Assembly (NCBI GenBank): GCA_038869515.1
Contig: JAWCQZ010000003.1
Coordinates: 126,884-190,883, forward strand
Source of the DNA: Halobacteria archaeon
GTDB taxonomy: Archaea > Halobacteriota > Syntropharchaeia > JACQPP01
Reading direction: 5' to 3'
DNA length: 64,000 nucleotides
Below, piece after piece: positions 9,041 through 57,292 of the stretch (position 1 is its first letter; each line of letters opens with the position of its first letter). The translations under genes were made by a program, and so were the position numbers. Under the pieces are notes generated by a model that worked only from the letters and a program-made list of their open reading frames with translations, was not told where the DNA came from and made no database searches.

Positions 9041-10396
9041 ATGGGGACGGAACTCTCCCCCGTGGTTCCCCGGAGGCCCGGCTCCCAATTGATTCCCGCC
9101 TCCGCCCTCCTCTCCCCCCGGGAGGCCGAGGAGGTCTTCCACGCGGGCGGCGAGGCCATCTGCGTCGCATGCAAGGGGGCTCACCTCCTCTGCGGCAAGG
9201 AGCGGTGCCCCATCCTGACGCGGCTCGCGCTCTTCCAGGCTGCGCGGCCCCTCTTCGAGACCACCGAACTGGCGGGCGCGACACCGCCCGGCGTCTTCGT
9301 CGGGCGGATGGGATACCCGAAGGTGACCATCGGGCCGCTCGTCCCGCCGGTGGGCGGGGACACCACCATCCTCGACATGCCGGAGCAGTGGCTCGGCAAG
9401 CCCATCGAGGAGATCGCCTCGATGCGCTTCTCGCTGGTCCGGGGGAAAATCCGGGTCAACGCCTGCGAGGTGGAGACCTCGGGCAGACTCGTGGACATGA
9501 CCCGAGAGCTGGCGATGGCCGCCTCACCCGCCGACATCGAGGCGGAGTTCACCAGGAAGCCCGCGGGCAAGGTGGTGGTGAACGAGGACTCCCAGCCCTT
9601 CGGCCCCTCGGCGCCACTCAAGGCGCTCGATCTGGGCGACCTGAAGGTGGACCAGCGCATCGAGAAGAGATACGGCGACACCGACCTGAAAGCCAAAGGC
9701 GCAGTCCTCGACCTCTACCGGGACGGCCTGCCGGTGTCGCGCATCCAGCGCTCCTTCAGCGCGGGGCTCTTCGGGTTGAAGAAGAACCGCCACTTCGTCC
9801 CGACTCGCTGGTCCATCACCGCGGTGGACAACGCCATCGGCCTAGACCTCGTCGCGAAGGTGAAGCGCGCCCCCGAAATCAACGAGTTCCGCATCTACGA
9901 GGCGGGCAACCTCGACAACCGCTTCCTGGTCCTCATGCTCCCGATGGCGTGGTCCTACGAGCTCATCGAGGCGTGGTATCCGAACACCCTCTGGAACCCC
10001 CTCGGGAGGCGGACGGTGATTTTCGGGGATTGCGAGTTCTACGAGGGGCGGACCACCTACGCTCAAATCGGCGGATGCTACTATGCGGCACGCCTCGCCG
10101 TCGGCGAGTGTTTGACGAAGGAGAACCGTCAGGCGCGGGTCGTCATCCTCCGGGAGGCCCACCCGGGCTATATCATGCCGGTGGGGGTGTGGAACGTGCG
10201 GGAGACGGTGCGGGAGGCGCTCCGCCACGAGCCGAGGAGGTTCGACCGGCTGAGCGAGGCGCTGGCGCACGTGACGACGCGGCTCGACATACCGCTGGGG
10301 ACGTGGATTCGGCACAGCGGGTTGCTGAGGGATGTGCGAAAACAGAGGCGGTTGGTGGATTTTGCGGAGAAGAAGGAGAGTCTAAGAAATGTTTGA
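9041..10396 (+). CDS. Nre-family DNA-repair-associated protein-like (DUF650/DUF651-like)
   Basis: 451 aa; N-terminal Cys cluster ICVACKGAHLLCGKERCPIL, then a conserved central region; assignment from memory of archaeal Nre proteins, not searched. Confidence 0.55.
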   Translation: MGTELSPVVPRRPGSQLIPASALLSPREAEEVFHAGGEAICVACKGAHLLCGKERCPILTRLALFQAARPLFETTELAGATPPGVFVGRMGYPKVTIGPLVPPVGGDTTILDMPEQWLGKPIEEIASMRFSLVRGKIRVNACEVETSGRLVDMTRELAMAASPADIEAEFTRKPAGKVVVNEDSQPFGPSAPLKALDLGDLKVDQRIEKRYGDTDLKAKGAVLDLYRDGLPVSRIQRSFSAGLFGLKKNRHFVPTRWSITAVDNAIGLDLVAKVKRAPEINEFRIYEAGNLDNRFLVLMLPMAWSYELIEAWYPNTLWNPLGRRTVIFGDCEFYEGRTTYAQIGGCYYAARLAVGECLTKENRQARVVILREAHPGYIMPVGVWNVRETVREALRHEPRRFDRLSEALAHVTTRLDIPLGTWIRHSGLLRDVRKQRRLVDFAEKKESLRNV

Positions 10397-10787
10397 CTTT
10401 GAGCGAGATATGTGCTGTGGAATTGGGCTGTTCATAGGGATTTTTGCATTAATCGGAGGCTTCGTTTCGCTGTTGCCGCAACCATGGAGGGAGCCAGTCG
10501 CTTATGGATTGTCTGTTCCAACTTTGATAGTTCTCGTACTTTACATCTGGGGAACCGCGAAGACTCACGAAGTTCGCGAAAAGGCAGAAGAAACTCGCTT
10601 AAGAGGACTAACCGAGCCTGAATCATTCCTAATCCCCAAATGGAAGAGGAAAGAAATGAGCAGTTCAGAAAGGAAGTGCCCTAGTTGTAAATCTACAGTT
10701 CCGCCTGGAGTCAATATTTGCGGAAGTTGCGGGCATGACTTTTCAATTGACGAGCTTCGGAGGCAGACTAAGTCTCGCGGCGATTGA
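10389..10787 (+). CDS. Small membrane protein with C-terminal zinc ribbon, encoded in a low-G+C segment
   Basis: 132 aa; two TM helices then CPSCKS…CGSCGHDF; codon usage A/T-rich at position 3 (ttt, gat, aaa, tta), unlike flanking genes. Confidence 0.5.
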   Translation: MFDFERDMCCGIGLFIGIFALIGGFVSLLPQPWREPVAYGLSVPTLIVLVLYIWGTAKTHEVREKAEETRLRGLTEPESFLIPKWKRKEMSSSERKCPSCKSTVPPGVNICGSCGHDFSIDELRRQTKSRGD

Positions 10788-10870
10788 GCCGAGTTGCGCA
10801 CCCGACAATCAACTTGTTCTTCTTGCGTAGCCCCCTTGCGCTCGCGCGCGGGCCCTTCATGGGTCGCGGG

Positions 10871-11098
10871 CTATTCCAACAGGCGGAGAAACTCTTCCAC
10901 AGTGAACCCCGCCTGCCGGAGGATGGCTCGCAGGGTCCCCCGCGAGACCTCCGCATGGGCGGGGACGGTCAGAGGCGGCCGCTCAGGGTGGCGCAGGTGG
11001 ATGTGGCTGCCCTTCTGGTCGCGGACGTAGTATCCCGTTTTGCCCAGGGCCCGGAGGACTTCCCGCGCCGACAAAACGGGCAGCCGGGGCACCGCCAA
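10871..11098 (-). CDS. hicA: Type II toxin HicA (mRNA interferase)
   Basis: 75 aa; LSAREVLRALGKTGYYVRDQKGSHIHLRHP…LTVPAH…LRAILRQAGFTVEEF matches the HicA/YcfA fold. Confidence 0.8.
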   Translation of the reverse strand: MAVPRLPVLSAREVLRALGKTGYYVRDQKGSHIHLRHPERPPLTVPAHAEVSRGTLRAILRQAGFTVEEFLRLLE

Positions 11099-11317
11099 TC
11101 ACACGGCGACCGAAACGGTGACCTCTTTGACCTTCGCCGACGGGCGGATGGGGAGGCCGTCCTCGGCCAGGGACTTCAGGTGCAACTCGATGGCCTCCTT
11201 GATGTTCCGCTTGGCATCGGCCACGGTCTTGCCTTGGGAGATGCAGCCCGGCAGGCTCGGCACGGTGGCCACATACCATCCGTCCTCTTCCTTCTCGAGG
11301 TGGACCTTGAACTTCAT
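11099..11317 (-). CDS. hicB: Antitoxin HicB
   Basis: 72 aa from ATG at 11317 (MKFKVHLEKEEDGWYVATVPSLPGCISQGKTVADAKRNIKEAIELHL…), HicB/UPF0150 signature; track start 11449 is an extension across a repeat; TATA-like ATTTAATAGG about 25 bp upstream. Confidence 0.75.
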   Translation of the reverse strand: MKFKVHLEKEEDGWYVATVPSLPGCISQGKTVADAKRNIKEAIELHLKSLAEDGLPIRPSAKVKEVTVSVAV

Positions 11318-11496
11318 CGCCCAATTGTGGGTTTTCAAGCCTATTAAATCTTCACGCCCGCGGGCTGTGCCCGAGAACTCCCCGCAGGAAGTGAACCCGC
11401 AGCTCTCGCACGCTCGCGCGCGGGCCCTCCGGGGTCGCCACTCGCGCAAGCGCGGGGGCTCCCCCGGGCCCGCGCTTGTTGCCGTCCCCCGACGCC

Positions 11497-11530
11497 TTTA
11501 AATACCATTGAATCAATTGATTCAATTGAA
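11497..11530 (+). promoter_or_regulatory. TATA box plus 23-bp palindromic operator upstream of the antitoxin/RelE pair
   Basis: TTTAAATA at 11497-11504; palindrome TTGAATCAATTGATTCAATTGAA at 11508-11530; ATG at 11534. Confidence 0.45.
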
Positions 11531-11533
11531 CCC

Positions 11534-11737
11534 ATGCCCCTCACCACCGTCTCCCTCAAGCCCGAGACCTTGGCGAGCCTGCGGGCCTACAAGGTGGGCG
11601 GGGCGTCCTACGACGACGTCCTCAACGATTTGATGGACGACCACCCCCCCGCGACCTTCGTGCAGGAGCACCTGCGGCGCCTCCGGGAAGAGGAGCGCAG
11701 CGACTGGGAGTCGGCCAAGCGAAAACTGAAGGTCTGA
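11534..11737 (+). CDS. Putative type II antitoxin (partner of the RelE/ParE-like toxin)
   Basis: 67 aa; directly upstream of and 10 bp from the toxin gene; …SYDDVLNDLMDD… resembles archaeal antitoxins. Confidence 0.6.
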   Translation: MPLTTVSLKPETLASLRAYKVGGASYDDVLNDLMDDHPPATFVQEHLRRLREEERSDWESAKRKLKV

Positions 11738-11746
11738 GCCGGGGCC

Positions 11747-12016
11747 GTGGCGCCCTTCGAGGTCCAACTGACCCGGAGCGCCGAGAAGGAGTTGTCCAAG
11801 TTGCCCCGGGAGGCCATCCTGCGGTTCGCCGCGGCCATCGACCGACTTCGGGAGGACCCGAACCACGCGCGGCCCGGCGTGGATGTGAAAAAGCTGAAAG
11901 GGACCCGCTCAGCGTGGCAGCTGCGGGTCGGGGACTACCGGGGCATCTACGAGGTCGAGGGGGACAGGGTCGTGTTCACACGGTTCGCCCACCGGTCGAA
12001 GGTTTACCGAGTGTAG
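11747..12016 (+). CDS. RelE/ParE-family type II toxin
   Basis: 89 aa; …WQLRVGDYRGIYEVEGDRVVFTRFAHRSKVY matches the RelE/ParE C-terminal fold. Confidence 0.8.
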   Translation: MAPFEVQLTRSAEKELSKLPREAILRFAAAIDRLREDPNHARPGVDVKKLKGTRSAWQLRVGDYRGIYEVEGDRVVFTRFAHRSKVYRV

Positions 12017-12017
12017 T

Positions 12018-12452
12018 TCACTTCGCTTGCCCCTTCTTCTTCATCTCCCCGGGGACCGCGTCCATGTCCATGTAGAACGGCTCCCAGATGTGCCCGTCGA
12101 GGTCCTGGAAGGCGCGCCCGTACATCCACCCGTAGTCCTGCTTCTCCCGGTACTCACGGCCTCCCGCGGCCACGGCGCTTTTCAGCATCTCGTCCACCGC
12201 CTTGCGGCTCTCGAGAGAGAGCGCGACGAGGACCTCGGTGCTCTTTTTTGCATCACATATCTCCCGGCCCGGGAGGAACCCCTTGAAGAATTTCTCCGCC
12301 AGCAGCATGGCGAACATGTTCTCCCCGACGACCATGCACGCCGCGTTGTCGTCGGTGAACATCGGGTTGAACTTGAAACCCAGTTTGGCGAAGAATGCGG
12401 TCGTCTTCTTGAGGTCTTTGACCGGCAGGTTGACGAAAATCTTGTCCGCCAT
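12018..12452 (-). CDS. VOC-family (glyoxalase/bleomycin-resistance fold) protein
   Basis: 144 aa from ATG at 12452 (MADKIFVNLPVKDLKKTTAFFAKLGFKF…); the track N-terminal extension has poor codon bias. Confidence 0.75.
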   Translation of the reverse strand: MADKIFVNLPVKDLKKTTAFFAKLGFKFNPMFTDDNAACMVVGENMFAMLLAEKFFKGFLPGREICDAKKSTEVLVALSLESRKAVDEMLKSAVAAGGREYREKQDYGWMYGRAFQDLDGHIWEPFYMDMDAVPGEMKKKGQAK

Positions 12453-21077: not shown

Positions 21078-21110
21078 GTCACAAGAATTTTCGCTGCGCG
21101 AAAATTCTTA
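21078..21110. repeat. 33-bp palindromic element GTCACAAGAATTTTCGCTGCGCGAAAATTCTTA (family 2, copy 1)
   Basis: Reverse complement of 47911-47943 with one mismatch; intergenic. Confidence 0.55.
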
Positions 21111-33617: not shown

Positions 33618-34430
33618 TTATTCAAAAAACCGGAAGAACCGGACTGCGTTCTCCGCGGTCGCACGGGCCACCCGGGCGGGGTCCTCGCCCCGGAACTCCG
33701 CGACGGCCCGGCAGACCCCGGCGACGTCGCCGGGCTCGGTCCGCTCACCGAGGCCGAAGAACGGAGCATCGGTCTCGACGACCAGGCTCTCCAGCGGGGC
33801 GGATTCCGCGGCCCGTTTCGGATTCTTGAACTTGGCCACGTTGGGGGCGATGCTGACGAGGTGGCCCCGGGAGGCCGCCTCGAGGGCGAGGCTCCGGGAG
33901 GCGGTCCAGCAGTGAAACTGGCACGGGACCCCGGAGTCGAGAACGCGCCGGTAGTCCTCCTCCGGCGCGTTCCGCATATGGAGGACCGCGGGGAGGCGCA
34001 ACTCCTTCGCCAGGTCCAGGAAGCGGTCCGCCACCTCACCCATCCGCTTCTGCTGGGCGGGCTCGCGGACCCACTTGTAGTCGAAGCCGAACTCCCCCAC
34101 CGCGACCATCTGCCCCCGGAGGTCCCGCAAACGGTCCATGTAATCCTGAATCGCTGCGCCGGTGGTGCGCAGGAGCGCGGAGGGGTGGAGGCCCAGAGCC
34201 GCGTGGACGAAACCGGGGTGCGCCCGGCGAAGGGCGAGGACCGGCTCCACCTCTTCCGGGGAGCAGGCGCTTACGACCACCCCCGCGAGACCCTCCCGGG
34301 CCCGGGCCAAGACCGAGTCGCGGTCGGAGTCGAAGGCCGGGTGGTGGAGGTGGCAGTGGGCGTCTATGGGCGCAAAATCGCAGCCCTCGCTCGCTGCGCT
34401 CTCTCGGGCGCGATTTTGCAAGGTTGCCAT
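33618..34430 (-). CDS. tatD: TatD-family metal-dependent hydrolase
   Basis: 270 aa; IDAHCHLH…, conserved His/Asp/Glu ligand pattern; the first about 20 codons are encoded by a family-1 repeat, so the true start may be downstream. Confidence 0.8.
   Translation of the reverse strand: MATLQNRARESAASEGCDFAPIDAHCHLHHPAFDSDRDSVLARAREGLAGVVVSACSPEEVEPVLALRRAHPGFVHAALGLHPSALLRTTGAAIQDYMDRLRDLRGQMVAVGEFGFDYKWVREPAQQKRMGEVADRFLDLAKELRLPAVLHMRNAPEEDYRRVLDSGVPCQFHCWTASRSLALEAASRGHLVSIAPNVAKFKNPKRAAESAPLESLVVETDAPFFGLGERTEPGDVAGVCRAVAEFRGEDPARVARATAENAVRFFRFFE
34370..34419. repeat. Family-1 palindromic element (GCGCAAAATCGC-core-GCGATTTTGC)
   Basis: Arms GCAAAATCGC / GCGATTTTGC flank core AGCCCTCGCTCGCTGCGCTCTCTCGGGC; near-identical core at 6091-6120 and, reverse-complemented, 57015-57047. 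Confidence 0.55.
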
Positions 34431-47840: not shown

Positions 47841-47979
47841 CAGAGCTCGCGCTCGCGCGAGCTCTGCGATGCCCCGGCCTGAAGGCCGGGACGTCCGCCG
47901 GCGGGCCTTTTAAGAATTTTCGCGCAGTGAAAATTCTTGTGACGGCAGACTTTTTAATCCCCATTCCCGATGTGTCGGG
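47841..47979. repeat. Hairpin-dense nuoH-nuoI spacer including a family-2 element
   Basis: Palindrome CAGAGCTCGCGCTCGCGCGAGCTCTG (47841-47866); CCGGCCTGAAGGCCGG (47874-47889); family-2 element TAAGAATTTTCGCGCAGTGAAAATTCTTGTGAC (47911-47943); TCCCGATGTGTCGGGA before the nuoI ATG. Confidence 0.55.
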
Positions 47980-54723: not shown

Positions 54724-54749
54724 ATATCACATCTCTCACTCTTCTCTGG
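54724..54749. repeat. 26-bp motif ATATCACATCTCTCACTCTTCTCTGG (copy 2 of 2)
   Basis: Matches 8942-8967 at 25 of 26 positions; overlaps the last codons and stop of the substrate-binding-protein gene and the spacer before the permease gene. Confidence 0.5.
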
Positions 54750-55584
54750 CATATCGAAACGGCCTGAACAGCCCATCTCCGAACGCCCCCACCATCCCCA
54801 GACCCCTCTCCGACAGCAGCCACTCGGCGAACGCCTTCGCCGGGGCGTGGTTCTTCCCGGGGAACCGGGTCTCGTTCAGCAGCAGGACGCTGTAGGTGTT
54901 CAGGAATGCGGGCTCGTCCCCGGGATTGAGCACGTCAAGGTCCAGCCGGCCCCTGTAGGAGCGATAGGTCCCCTCGTCGGTGAGCGTGTAGGCCCCGAGT
55001 TCGAAGGCCTTCTGGAGCGTCGCCCCCATCCCCGCACCCGCCGAGAGGTACCAGGCGTTGGAGGGGACGGAAATCTCCGTCGTGTAGTTGTATCCTGCCC
55101 CCTTCCAGAGCAACTGCTCCCGGGCGTGGGTGCCGGACCGGTCGCCCCGGGATACGAAGGTGGCGTTCCGGTCGTGGATGGCCCGGAAGGTCCCTGCGGC
55201 GTCGAGGCCCCGGACTCCGGCCGGGTCGGCGGGCGGCCCGACCACCTGGAAGCGGTTGGTGGCGAAGGGGGTCCGCGTGAAGTATCCCTCGGCGACCATC
55301 GCCAGTTCCAAATCAGGGTCGTGGGTGAGGGCCATATCCACGTCGCCCCGGCGCGCCAGTTCGATCGCCTGGCCCGAGCCCACCGGGATGAAATACATCC
55401 GGGTCCCGGTCTCGCGGGTGAAGTTCGAGGCGAGGGAATCGAGGAGCCCCGTGTGGACGAGGCTCGTGGTGGTGGAGGCGAGGAGCGGGGGGGGCGGGCC
55501 GAGGGGGCGGAGAATGGGGACCAGAAGCAGCGCCAGCAGGAGGCCCCCCAGGAGAGCCCAGTGCAAAGTCCGGGAAACGCGCAT
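54736..55584 (-). CDS. ABC transporter substrate-binding protein (tungstate/molybdate TupA/WtpA-like)
   Basis: 282 aa; signal anchor; periplasmic-binding-protein fold motifs; first gene of a three-gene ABC operon. Confidence 0.7.
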   Translation of the reverse strand: MRVSRTLHWALLGGLLLALLLVPILRPLGPPPPLLASTTTSLVHTGLLDSLASNFTRETGTRMYFIPVGSGQAIELARRGDVDMALTHDPDLELAMVAEGYFTRTPFATNRFQVVGPPADPAGVRGLDAAGTFRAIHDRNATFVSRGDRSGTHAREQLLWKGAGYNYTTEISVPSNAWYLSAGAGMGATLQKAFELGAYTLTDEGTYRSYRGRLDLDVLNPGDEPAFLNTYSVLLLNETRFPGKNHAPAKAFAEWLLSERGLGMVGAFGDGLFRPFRYAREE

Positions 55585-56971: not shown

Positions 56972-57047
56972 CTTGCAAAATCGCGGCCGAGAGAAGCGAG
57001 GCCAGCGATTTTGCCCCGCCCCGAGAGAGCGCAGCGAGCGAGGGGCT
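56972..57047. repeat. Family-1 palindromic element (reverse orientation, 1.5 units)
   Basis: GCAAAATCGC (56975-56984) … GCGATTTTGC (57005-57014) followed by CCCGCCCCGAGAGAGCGCAGCGAGCGAGGGGCTG, the reverse complement of the core at 34380-34409. Confidence 0.55.
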
Positions 57048-57052
57048 GAGAA

Positions 57053-57292
57053 TTACCTGACTTCGACCTTCTCGACCGCTCGCTGGGCCTCGGCCTCCTC
57101 CATCCGCGCCAGTTCGTCCTCGATGGCGGTCTTCGCCGCCATGAGGAGGTCGCGCCGGACGGCCCGGAGGGGGGCCTTGACCTCCTCGGGGACGGCCCAG
57201 AAGAGGTCCACGGGGGGCACGACGCCCCGGACCGCTGCCCGGAGGTGGCCTGCGGCGTTGAGAAGGTGGTCCGCAACGTCTCGGGTGGCCAT
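57053..57292 (-). CDS. Hypothetical small helical protein downstream of the ArsA-like gene
   Basis: 79 aa from ATG 57292; good codon bias; the long track ORF 57053..58234 upstream of it is antisense to the ArsA-like gene. Confidence 0.4.
   Translation of the reverse strand: MATRDVADHLLNAAGHLRAAVRGVVPPVDLFWAVPEEVKAPLRAVRRDLLMAAKTAIEDELARMEEAEAQRAVEKVEVR

What the first reader, a model, noticed from the sequence alone, without database searches (positions are those of the whole stretch)
10839..11428. 18-bp direct repeats bracket the HicAB module
CGCTCGCGCGCGGGCCCT occurs at 10839-10856, just downstream of the hicA stop, and again at 11411-11428, just upstream of the hicB promoter, in the same orientation. 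Direct repeats flanking a two-gene cassette suggest insertion by site-specific recombination or a duplicated target site, making hicAB a discrete mobile cassette.
Basis: seen in the sequence. Interest (0 to 1): 0.55.

Follow-up and report, generated by a model that had tools for sequence, protein, structure and literature searches.

The report
Conserved direct repeats flanking archaeal hicBA
A small toxin-antitoxin gene pair in an uncultured archaeon sits between two copies of a roughly 30-base sequence that a related genome also keeps at the edge of a different foreign insert, so the sequence looks like a reused insertion junction; the mobility of the gene pair itself is not shown.

Summary
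CGCTCGCGCGCGGGCCCT occurs exactly twice in the 64-kb window, at 10839-10856 and 11411-11428 on the same strand. The similarity extends to about 29-42 nt. The copies bracket hicB (11317-11099) and hicA (11098-10871). Chance is unlikely: 1 of 5000 shuffles of the two flanking intergenic regions aligns as well, and no real window does.

The repeat, called R here, is not a common genome-wide motif. A profile of R finds no third copy in the window.

New evidence comes from a relative with 84.5% nre DNA identity. There, a different AT-rich ORF follows nre and is followed by the same R. R matches 27/28 positions, although homology otherwise stops at the nre stop codon. R therefore seems constrained and marks junctions of three unrelated segments.

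The mobile-cassette reading is only partly supported:
- No integrase was found nearby.
- No empty site and no second hicBA context were found.
- hicBA has native codon composition.
- R lacks integron attC core motifs.
- R1 may instead belong to the neighbouring AT-rich insertion.

This is an ordinary to mildly interesting insertion footprint.

The parts
10839..10856 (+). R1 core: exact 18-mer CGCTCGCGCGCGGGCCCT
10826..10867 (+). R1 extended repeat: a 13-nt left arm (7/13 shared with R2), the core, a TCAT spacer and GGGTCGC. It contains the dyad GCGGGCCC-N5-GGGTCGC (10848-10867).
11411..11428 (+). R2 core: exact 18-mer
11398..11438 (+). R2 extended repeat. It contains the dyad GCGGGCCC-TCC-GGGGTCGC (11420-11438). 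This is the copy closest to the relative's R (27/28).
10871..11098 (-). hicA toxin: 75 aa from TTG, or 73 aa from GTG at 11092 as called in the NCBI record
   Evidence: Pfam PF07927, E=1.9e-18; gene call
11099..11317 (-). hicB antitoxin, 72 aa. Only the N-terminal HicB-like/UPF0150 fold is present, with no DNA-binding domain. It lies upstream of hicA.
   Evidence: Pfam PF15919, E=5.8e-13, and PF21748
11342..11348 (-). TATA-like box TTTAATA, 24 nt before the hicB ATG. This is an inferred archaeal promoter for a leaderless mRNA.
   Evidence: read from the sequence; inference
11447..11478 (.). G+C-rich palindrome CAAGCGCGGG-N12-CCCGCGCTTG. Its 3' arm (GGGCCCGCGC, 11466-11475) is also complementary to the R core.
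   Evidence: I9-I11. The fold is not better than shuffles.
10389..10787 (+). AT-rich ORF (132 aa, membrane segment plus zinc ribbon) inside the only AT-rich island of the window (10261-10880). It is foreign DNA that ends about 14 nt before the extended R1.
   Evidence: (GC3 0.45)
11497..11530 (+). TATA-like TTTAAATA plus the palindromic operator-like ATTGAATCAATTGATTCAATTGA of the divergent relB-like/parE operon
   Evidence: conserved in relative P0365
11534..12016 (+). RelB-like antitoxin (11534-11737) and ParE/RelE toxin (11747-12016). This second TA pair forms the right-hand neighbour of R2.
   Evidence: Pfam PF05016, E=5.5e-11; 91-93% variants elsewhere
9041..10396 (+). nre (Nre family DNA repair protein). 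This is the conserved left anchor; homology to relatives ends at its stop codon.

Best explanation
R is a constrained site of about 28-30 bp specific to this locus. It has an invariant 18-nt core, a 3-4 nt variable spacer and the block GGGTCGC, and it contains an imperfect dyad GCGGGCCC/GGGTCGC. R acts as the junction at which DNA segments have been inserted downstream of nre in this archaeal lineage.

The hicB-hicA pair carries its own TATA-like promoter. Together with one R it forms a 572-bp unit lying between two R copies. The most likely origin is recombination between an R on incoming DNA (circular or linear) and the chromosomal R. That leaves R on both sides, as with attL and attR or the sites that bound gene cassettes. 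The recombinase would be supplied in trans and is not identified.

Shown:
- The repeat is real and non-random.
- It is low in copy number.
- It is conserved in a relative, at the edge of a non-homologous insert.

Inferred:
- R is a recombination site.
- hicBA, rather than its AT-rich neighbour, was the inserted unit.
For: - The repeat is real and improbable by chance.
- There are only two copies in 64 kb, and a profile of the three known R copies finds no degenerate copies. R is therefore not a dispersed REP-like motif.
- In L124 (a Logan contig) nre DNA is 84.5% identical to the window. Homology stops at the nre stop codon, and a different AT-rich ORF of 149 aa follows. Fifteen nt after that ORF's stop comes aCGCTCGCGCGCGGGCCCTTCCGGGGTC.
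- That copy has no substitutions over 27 aligned nt against R2, while syntenic coding DNA is 76-85% identical. By my estimate, about 1% of neutral stretches of that length would stay unchanged.
- Three unrelated segments (AT-rich ORF A, hicBA, L124 ORF X) each have R at their right edge.
- Differences among the three R copies cluster in a 3-4 nt spacer and the outer arms, not in the core.
- L124's R resembles R1 on its left (TT at -3/-2) and R2 on its right (CCGGGGTC). An empty site would look like this, but the evidence is only a few bases.
- HicA and HicB are singletons at 90% identity, whereas RelB-like and ParE have 91-93% variants in other assemblies.
- The downstream side of nre differs in all four genomes examined.
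- Precedents exist. A TA module is fenced by direct repeats in Microcystis (PMC7935541). TA cassettes are common in bacterial and archaeal integrons (PMC9668308).
Against: - No empty site was seen. L124 ends 9 nt after the core, so what follows R there is unknown.
- No tyrosine or serine recombinase, transposase or IS element appears among the genes within about 6 kb, and no tRNA gene is nearby.
- hicBA GC3 (0.84 and 0.89) equals that of host genes. Any acquisition is therefore old or came from a close relative.
- The clearly recent foreign DNA is the AT-rich segment that abuts R1, not hicBA.
- Folds of the R regions are no more stable than shuffles.
- R was not found in viral contigs or JGI metagenomes. 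The single metagenome hit is a chance match inside a bacterial ORF.
- Only three R instances are known.
Confidence: 0.42

Rival explanations
1. The duplication belongs to the neighbouring AT-rich insertion, and hicBA is a bystander. In this view hicBA-R2-relBE is the older arrangement. The foreign AT-rich segment entered downstream of nre together with its own R, or by copying R, so R1 marks the right end of that segment. The bracketing of hicBA is then a by-product.
For: - The AT-rich island 10261-10880 is the only compositionally foreign DNA in 64 kb. Its GC3 is 0.45 against about 0.9 elsewhere, and it ends about 14 nt before the extended R1.
- In L124 a different AT-rich ORF is likewise followed directly by R. 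'AT-rich ORF plus R' therefore recurs twice, while 'hicBA plus R' is seen once.
- hicBA is compositionally native.
Against: - L124's R is closer to R2 (27/28) than to R1 (27/30).
- No R-like sequence lies at the left edge of either AT-rich segment, so these segments are not themselves bracketed.
- HicA and HicB are singletons at 90% identity, while relBE is shared.
Confidence: 0.25
2. R is a cis-acting protein-binding or regulatory site, namely a dyad-symmetric operator or upstream element in the divergent hicB/relB promoter region. It happens to exist in two copies, with no role in recombination.
For: - R contains an imperfect palindrome GCGGGCCC-N3-5-GGGTCGC.
- R2 lies between two divergent TATA-like boxes.
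- The core is more conserved than coding DNA, which suggests function.
- This HicB lacks a DNA-binding domain, so another regulator could act at the promoter.
Against: - R1 lies between two convergent stop codons, where an operator has no obvious target.
- R2 is about 60-70 nt from either TATA box, and archaeal repressor sites usually overlap the TATA box or the transcription start (established knowledge).
- This reading does not explain why homology between genomes breaks exactly at R.
Confidence: 0.13
3. The match is a chance coincidence of G+C-rich, low-complexity sequence (CGCGCGCG, GGGCCC) in a 69% G+C genome.
For: - The 64-kb window holds four exact direct repeats of 18 nt or more and seventeen of 17 nt or more.
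- The 18-mer occurs by chance in more than 120 unrelated G+C-rich genomes.
Against: - 1 of 5000 shuffles and 0 of 580 real windows reach the alignment score.
- A second conserved block, GGGTCGC, lies beyond a variable spacer.
- The same composite sequence occurs in the relative.
- Only 1 of 120 random genomic 18-mer hits carries the extension.
Confidence: 0.04
4. The two R copies are attC sites, so the locus is an integron-type gene cassette array, or a CALIN, of the kind reported in Archaea.
For: - The units are small and same-oriented, and each ends in the same site.
- One unit is a TA pair with its own promoter, as in chromosomal integrons (PMC9668308).
Against: - No GTTRRRY or RYYYAAC core occurs on either strand in 10380-11560.
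- There is no attC-like hairpin above background.
- No IntI-like gene lies nearby.
- R is about 30 nt, shorter than attC sites. The attC size range of roughly 55-140 nt is from my own knowledge.
Confidence: 0.03

Closest known systems
attL/attR direct repeats left by site-specific integration (tyrosine-recombinase elements, including archaeal SSV-type or pTN3-type integrases)
   Same: An identical core in direct orientation flanks a discrete inserted segment. The arms outside the core diverge.
   Different: The 572-bp unit carries no integrase and none is nearby. The target is not a tRNA gene. The unit is far smaller than known integrative elements.
Integron gene cassettes and CALINs, including archaeal ones (Ghaly et al. 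2022, PMC9668308)
   Same: The units are about 0.4-0.6 kb, each followed by the same recombination-site-like repeat. One is a TA cassette with its own promoter. The cassette content differs between relatives.
   Different: R lacks the attC core motifs and hairpin (tested). It is about 30 nt. No intI or attI is present. Only two sites are found here.
ParDE-like TA module of Microcystis aeruginosa PCC 7806, fenced by two identical 152-bp direct repeats (Klemencic et al. 2021, PMC7935541)
   Same: A two-gene type II TA module lies between same-orientation repeats placed just outside the operon.
   Different: Those repeats are 152 bp, identical, and carry a 16-bp inverted repeat. The host is bacterial, and no conservation of the repeat at other junctions was reported in the passages read.
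Integrase-less elements that exploit the host Xer/dif system (IMEX). This comparison is from my own knowledge and was not tested.
   Same: Such elements have no recombinase of their own and lie between two copies of a short dyad-containing host recombination site.
   Different: R has not been shown to be the archaeal dif site. R occurs next to nre, with no evidence of a replication terminus.
Dispersed intergenic palindromes (REP/BIME-like) and MITEs
   Same: R is short, G+C-rich, intergenic and partly palindromic.
   Different: R is not dispersed (2 copies in 64 kb) and has no terminal inverted repeats. Other small repeat families in the window are unrelated to R.

Membership tests
Type II toxin-antitoxin HicAB | HicA toxin domain (PF07927) above the Pfam threshold | tested here: met
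   66.7 bits against a cutoff of 27, E=1.9e-18. The GSH motif (QKGSHIHL) is visible in the translation.
Type II toxin-antitoxin HicAB | HicB-like antitoxin domain (PF15919 / UPF0150) encoded next to hicA on the same strand | tested here: met
   49.5 bits against a cutoff of 27. The genes abut, at 11099-11317 and 10871-11098. Here the antitoxin gene comes first, unlike the toxin-first order described as typical for hicAB (PMC11594946).
Integron gene cassette / attC site (CALIN) | attC core sites R'' (RYYYAAC) and R' (GTTRRRY) at the cassette boundaries | tested here: not met
   Neither pattern occurs on either strand in 10380-11560.
Integron gene cassette / attC site (CALIN) | An imperfect palindrome that folds into a stable single-strand hairpin | tested here: not met
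   DNA folds of both R regions on both strands give z-scores from -0.3 to -1.1 against shuffles.
Integron gene cassette / attC site (CALIN) | An integron integrase (IntI) with attI next to the array | tested here: not met
   No recombinase family appears among the Pfam-labelled genes within about 6 kb on either side. The rest of the genome was not examined.
attL/attR of a site-specifically integrated element | An identical core sequence in direct orientation on both sides of the insert | tested here: met
   The core is 18/18 identical, and the alignment spans 29 nt with 1 gap and 2 mismatches.
attL/attR of a site-specifically integrated element | An unoccupied site (single copy, no insert) in a related genome | tested here: inconclusive
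   L124 shows a single R, but the contig ends 9 nt after the core. The contigs that carry the relatives' relBE could not be fetched.
attL/attR of a site-specifically integrated element | A cognate integrase encoded in the element or nearby | tested here: not met
   The 572-bp unit encodes only HicB and HicA, and the neighbouring genes include no integrase.
Transposon target-site duplication | A short exact duplication next to terminal inverted repeats, with a transposase | tested here: not met
   The repeat is 18 nt or longer with diverged extensions. No terminal inverted repeats lie at the cassette ends and there is no transposase.
Dispersed intergenic repeat (REP/MITE-like) | Many copies scattered through the genome | tested here: not met
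   There are 2 copies in 64 kb with up to 3 mismatches allowed, and the profile scan finds no others. The whole genome was not scanned.
Xer/dif-exploiting element (IMEX) | The flanking repeat is the host chromosome's dif site, recognised by XerA | not testable with these tools
   No dif annotation or whole genome was available. R has a dyad, but nothing links it to dif.

The most novel reading that the evidence does not exclude
R is the recombination site of a previously undescribed archaeal cassette system that does not use attC. In this reading, DNA downstream of nre is a small cassette array in which each unit (AT-rich ORF, hicBA, and a different ORF in the relative) ends in the same constrained ~30-bp dyad-containing site. 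The units would be exchanged by an unidentified recombinase acting in trans.
Probability: 0.08. Interest if true: 0.65.

Novelty: new member of a known kind. Interest (0 to 1): 0.3.

Why it matters
If R is a recombination site, it gives a concrete, sequence-defined handle on how very small toxin-antitoxin modules and orphan foreign ORFs move into archaeal chromosomes without carrying their own integrase. That process is widely assumed but rarely tied to a specific site outside integrons. As the evidence stands, it documents a local hot spot of gene insertion next to nre in an uncultured G+C-rich archaeal lineage. It also gives a testable prediction: a single-R empty site next to relBE in relatives. 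It does not change how HicAB systems are understood.

Tried and rejected
- **Extended motif scans.** Viral contigs gave 0 hits. JGI metagenomes gave 1 chance hit inside a bacterial ORF.
- **Empty-site search through orthologues.** The nre search gave L124 (useful), L125 and L126, which lack synteny or are too short. The VOC search showed that this gene has no close orthologue (best hits 76-78%, two of them labelled Nitrososphaera), so it was no help as an anchor. The sugar nucleotidyltransferase search found the 82% relative in a different context.
- **Exact-protein look-ups.** HicB, ParE, RelB-like, and the 56-aa and 42-aa proteins returned only the same population. The region is 100% identical across the three HicB loci aligned, and the later look-ups show the same gene order. 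The 75-aa HicA and the AT-rich ORF are not on record.
- **vapBC check in L128.** The vapBC-like insertion there has no flanking direct repeats, so direct repeats are not a general signature of TA insertion in this lineage.
- **RNA readings.** Rfam found nothing and no tRNA lies nearby. Folds are not above background. An RNA-element or terminator reading is rejected.
- **AT-rich ORFs.** Neither has viral relatives. Pfam gives the window's ORF only sub-threshold zinc-ribbon matches and the L124 ORF nothing informative.
- **attC reading.** It is rejected on the core motifs.

Full report
**Observation**

The 18-mer CGCTCGCGCGCGGGCCCT is present at 10839-10856 and 11411-11428 on the + strand. These are the only two matches in the 64-kb window, even with three mismatches allowed.

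Between the copies lie two genes on the - strand:
- hicB (11317-11099, 72 aa), which matches PF15919 at E=5.8e-13.
- hicA (11098-10871, 75 aa), which matches PF07927 at E=1.9e-18.

The antitoxin gene comes first. This is the reverse of the toxin-first order described as typical for hicAB (PMC11594946).

R1 ends 14 nt beyond the hicA stop codon. R2 lies 94-111 nt upstream of the hicB ATG and about 62 nt upstream of a TATA-like TTTAATA (11342-11348). That box sits 24 nt before the ATG, the spacing expected for an archaeal leaderless transcript. This last point is my inference from the sequence.

- It is 31 nt at 81% identity.
- After a 3-4 nt variable spacer there is a second shared block, GGGTCGC.
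- Each copy thus contains the imperfect dyad GCGGGCCC-N3-5-GGGTCGC. This pattern occurs nowhere else in the window, against 0.02 expected.

**Is it more than chance?**

The window is 69% G+C and has four exact direct repeats of 18 nt or more, so an 18-mer match somewhere is not remarkable. A match within 1 kb is seen in only 1-3.5% of Markov simulations.

The direct test compares the two intergenic regions that flank hicBA. Their local alignment scores 41, against a mean of 17.2 (sd 2.6) in dinucleotide shuffles. Only 1 of 5000 shuffles reaches 41, and none of 580 real windows does; the best real window scores 26.

The sequence is base-for-base identical in the NCBI MAG contig (GCA_038869275.1, JAWCRK010000003.1) and in two independently built Logan contigs. 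An assembly artefact is therefore unlikely.

**Is R a common motif?**

Within the window it is not. There are two copies only, and an nhmmer profile built from the three known copies finds nothing else in the window or in the relatives' loci.

Across other taxa the bare 18-mer is simply a random G+C-rich string:
- More than 120 single hits occur in unrelated bacteria, mostly inside ORFs.
- Only one of those carries the extension by chance.
- The extended motif is absent from viral contigs.
- Its single JGI metagenome hit lies inside a bacterial ORF.

**Surroundings**

The locus reads as follows:
- nre (9041-10396, +).
- An AT-rich ORF of 132 aa (10389-10787, +).
- R1.
- hicA and hicB (-).
- R2.
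- A G+C-rich palindrome (11447-11478).
- A divergent promoter with an operator-like palindrome (11497-11530).
- A RelB-like antitoxin and a ParE toxin (11534-12016, +).
- A VOC/glyoxalase gene (-).
- Two small ORFs.
- A sugar nucleotidyltransferase gene.

The AT-rich island 10261-10880 is the only one in the whole window. Its ORF has GC3 of 0.45, against 0.84-0.93 for every neighbour, hicA (0.84) and hicB (0.89) included.

The VOC gene has no close orthologue. Its best hits are 76-78% identical, and two of them carry Nitrososphaera labels. The stretch between nre and the nucleotidyltransferase gene is therefore a small variable island.

No integrase, transposase or tRNA gene lies nearby. Rfam finds nothing.

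**Comparative evidence**

The nearest relative with sequence at this locus is L124, a Logan contig from SRR22388343. Its Nre protein is 88% identical, its nre DNA 84.5%, and other syntenic coding DNA 76-85%.

Homology to the window stops at the nre stop codon. A different AT-rich ORF of 149 aa follows, with no informative Pfam match and no viral relatives. Fifteen nt after its stop codon comes aCGCTCGCGCGCGGGCCCTTCCGGGGTC, where the contig ends.

This copy matches R2 at 27 of 28 positions (one gap, no substitutions) and R1 at 27 of 30. At about 15% divergence, a neutral 27-nt stretch would stay unchanged about 1% of the time, by my estimate. The core is therefore constrained or was recently exchanged.

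The three copies differ only in the short spacer and the outer arms. Three unrelated segments therefore each have R on their right edge: the window's AT-rich ORF, hicBA, and L124's AT-rich ORF.

More distant relatives show different arrangements:
- L125 (80% Nre) and L126 (69% Nre) have yet other sequence after nre and no R.
- In L128 a vapBC-like pair sits between two genes that overlap in the window, without flanking repeats.

At 90% clustering, HicA and HicB are singletons. The RelB-like antitoxin and ParE have 91-93% variants in other assemblies, and the promoter/operator is conserved there. This is weakly consistent with hicBA being the later arrival, but the threshold is borderline and those contigs could not be fetched.

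**Interpretation**

The best-supported reading is that R is a constrained, locus-specific junction site at which DNA has been inserted downstream of nre. The duplication around hicBA would be the footprint of one such event, in which an incoming R recombined with the chromosomal R and left R on both sides.

L124's R looks like R1 on its left (TT at -3/-2) and like R2 on its right (CCGGGGTC). An empty site would look this way, but this rests on a few bases only.

Several points count against a simple 'hicAB is a mobile cassette' reading:
- There is no recombinase nearby.
- No empty site was found.
- No second hicBA context was found.
- hicBA has native composition.

The main rival is that R1 came with the obviously foreign AT-rich segment and hicBA is a bystander. 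'AT-rich ORF plus R' is the unit seen twice.

A regulatory-site reading fits the dyad and the conservation. It does not explain the position of R1 between two convergent stop codons, nor the break of homology exactly at R.

The remaining readings are rejected or disfavoured:
- Chance is disfavoured.
- An integron attC reading fails the core-motif, hairpin and integrase tests.
- A classical target-site duplication does not fit the length, the diverged extensions or the cross-genome constraint.

**Comparison with what is known**

TA modules bounded by direct repeats are documented. Examples are 152-bp repeats around a ParDE-like pair in Microcystis (PMC7935541) and TA cassettes in bacterial and archaeal integrons (PMC9668308).

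This case resembles those in layout. It is not a member of the integron family by the tests run here. It is closest in logic to attL/attR sites, or to elements that borrow a host recombinase; neither membership could be completed.

**Verdict**

This is a new instance of a known kind of feature, of modest interest (0.3). A more novel reading, a non-attC archaeal cassette site, is not excluded, and I put its probability at about 8%.

Noticed in passing
window 10261-10880 (ORF 10389-10787, +): This is the only strongly AT-rich island in 64 kb, with a minimum GC of 0.44. It holds a 132-aa ORF with a hydrophobic N-terminal part and a C-terminal zinc ribbon, with GC3 of 0.45 against about 0.9 in neighbours. 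The ORF overlaps the last codons of nre, is not called as a gene in the public records, and has no viral relatives.
   Followed up: partly
L124 9344-9793 (relative, SRR22388343): A different AT-rich ORF (149 aa, no informative Pfam match) occupies the same position downstream of nre and is followed by R. The Logan contig ends 9 nt after the R core, which could reflect a graph branch or a coverage drop.
   Followed up: partly
window 6083-6128 (+), 34373-34418 (+), about 57010-57060 (-): Three copies of a ~45-nt intergenic element share the core CCCTCGCTCGCTGCGCTC(G/T)CTCGGG. In the two + strand copies the core is flanked by inverted arms AAAA(C/T)CGC / GCG(T/A)TTTT and the element ends just before ..GTTGCCATG, possibly a start codon. 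The family is unrelated to R by the profile search.
   Followed up: no
window 21078-21110 and 47911-47943: Two copies on opposite strands of a 33-nt near-perfect palindrome, GTCACAAGAATTTTC(G/A)CTGCGCGAAAATTCTTA. Function is unknown.
   Followed up: no
window 8943-8971 and 54724-54752: A 29-nt A+T-rich direct repeat (93% identical), ATATCACATCTCTCACTCTT(T/C)TCTGG. The first copy lies about 70 nt upstream of nre, inside a 266-nt stretch (8731-8996) that has no counterpart in L124.
   Followed up: no
window 11497-11530; also 10742-10751: The relB-like/parE operon has a TATA-like TTTAAATA followed by the palindrome ATTGAATCAATTGATTCAATTGA, a likely operator that is conserved in relative P0365. 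The only other TCAATTGA in the window lies inside the AT-rich ORF, and L124 has TTCAATTA abutting R. This may be a composition effect.
   Followed up: partly
window 12018-12452 (-): The VOC/glyoxalase gene has no close orthologue in the lineage. Its best hits are 76-78% identical, and two of them are labelled Nitrososphaera. Its GC3 is host-like (0.88), which suggests an older horizontal acquisition. A 150-aa variant exists in SRR27730034, and contigs of SRR27730035 break inside this gene.
   Followed up: partly
L128 3667-4505 (relative, ERR15087778): A 77-aa ORF, a PIN-domain protein (vapBC-like) and a 52-aa ORF are inserted between the nucleotidyltransferase and UDP-glucose dehydrogenase genes. 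Those two genes overlap by 4 nt in the window. No flanking direct repeats were found.
   Followed up: yes
window as a whole / GCA_038869275.1: NCBI labels the MAG 'Halobacteria archaeon'. The neighbourhood nevertheless encodes Mtd (methylene-tetrahydromethanopterin dehydrogenase) and FpoO, and the genome is 69% G+C, so the label is probably only a coarse placement.
   Followed up: no
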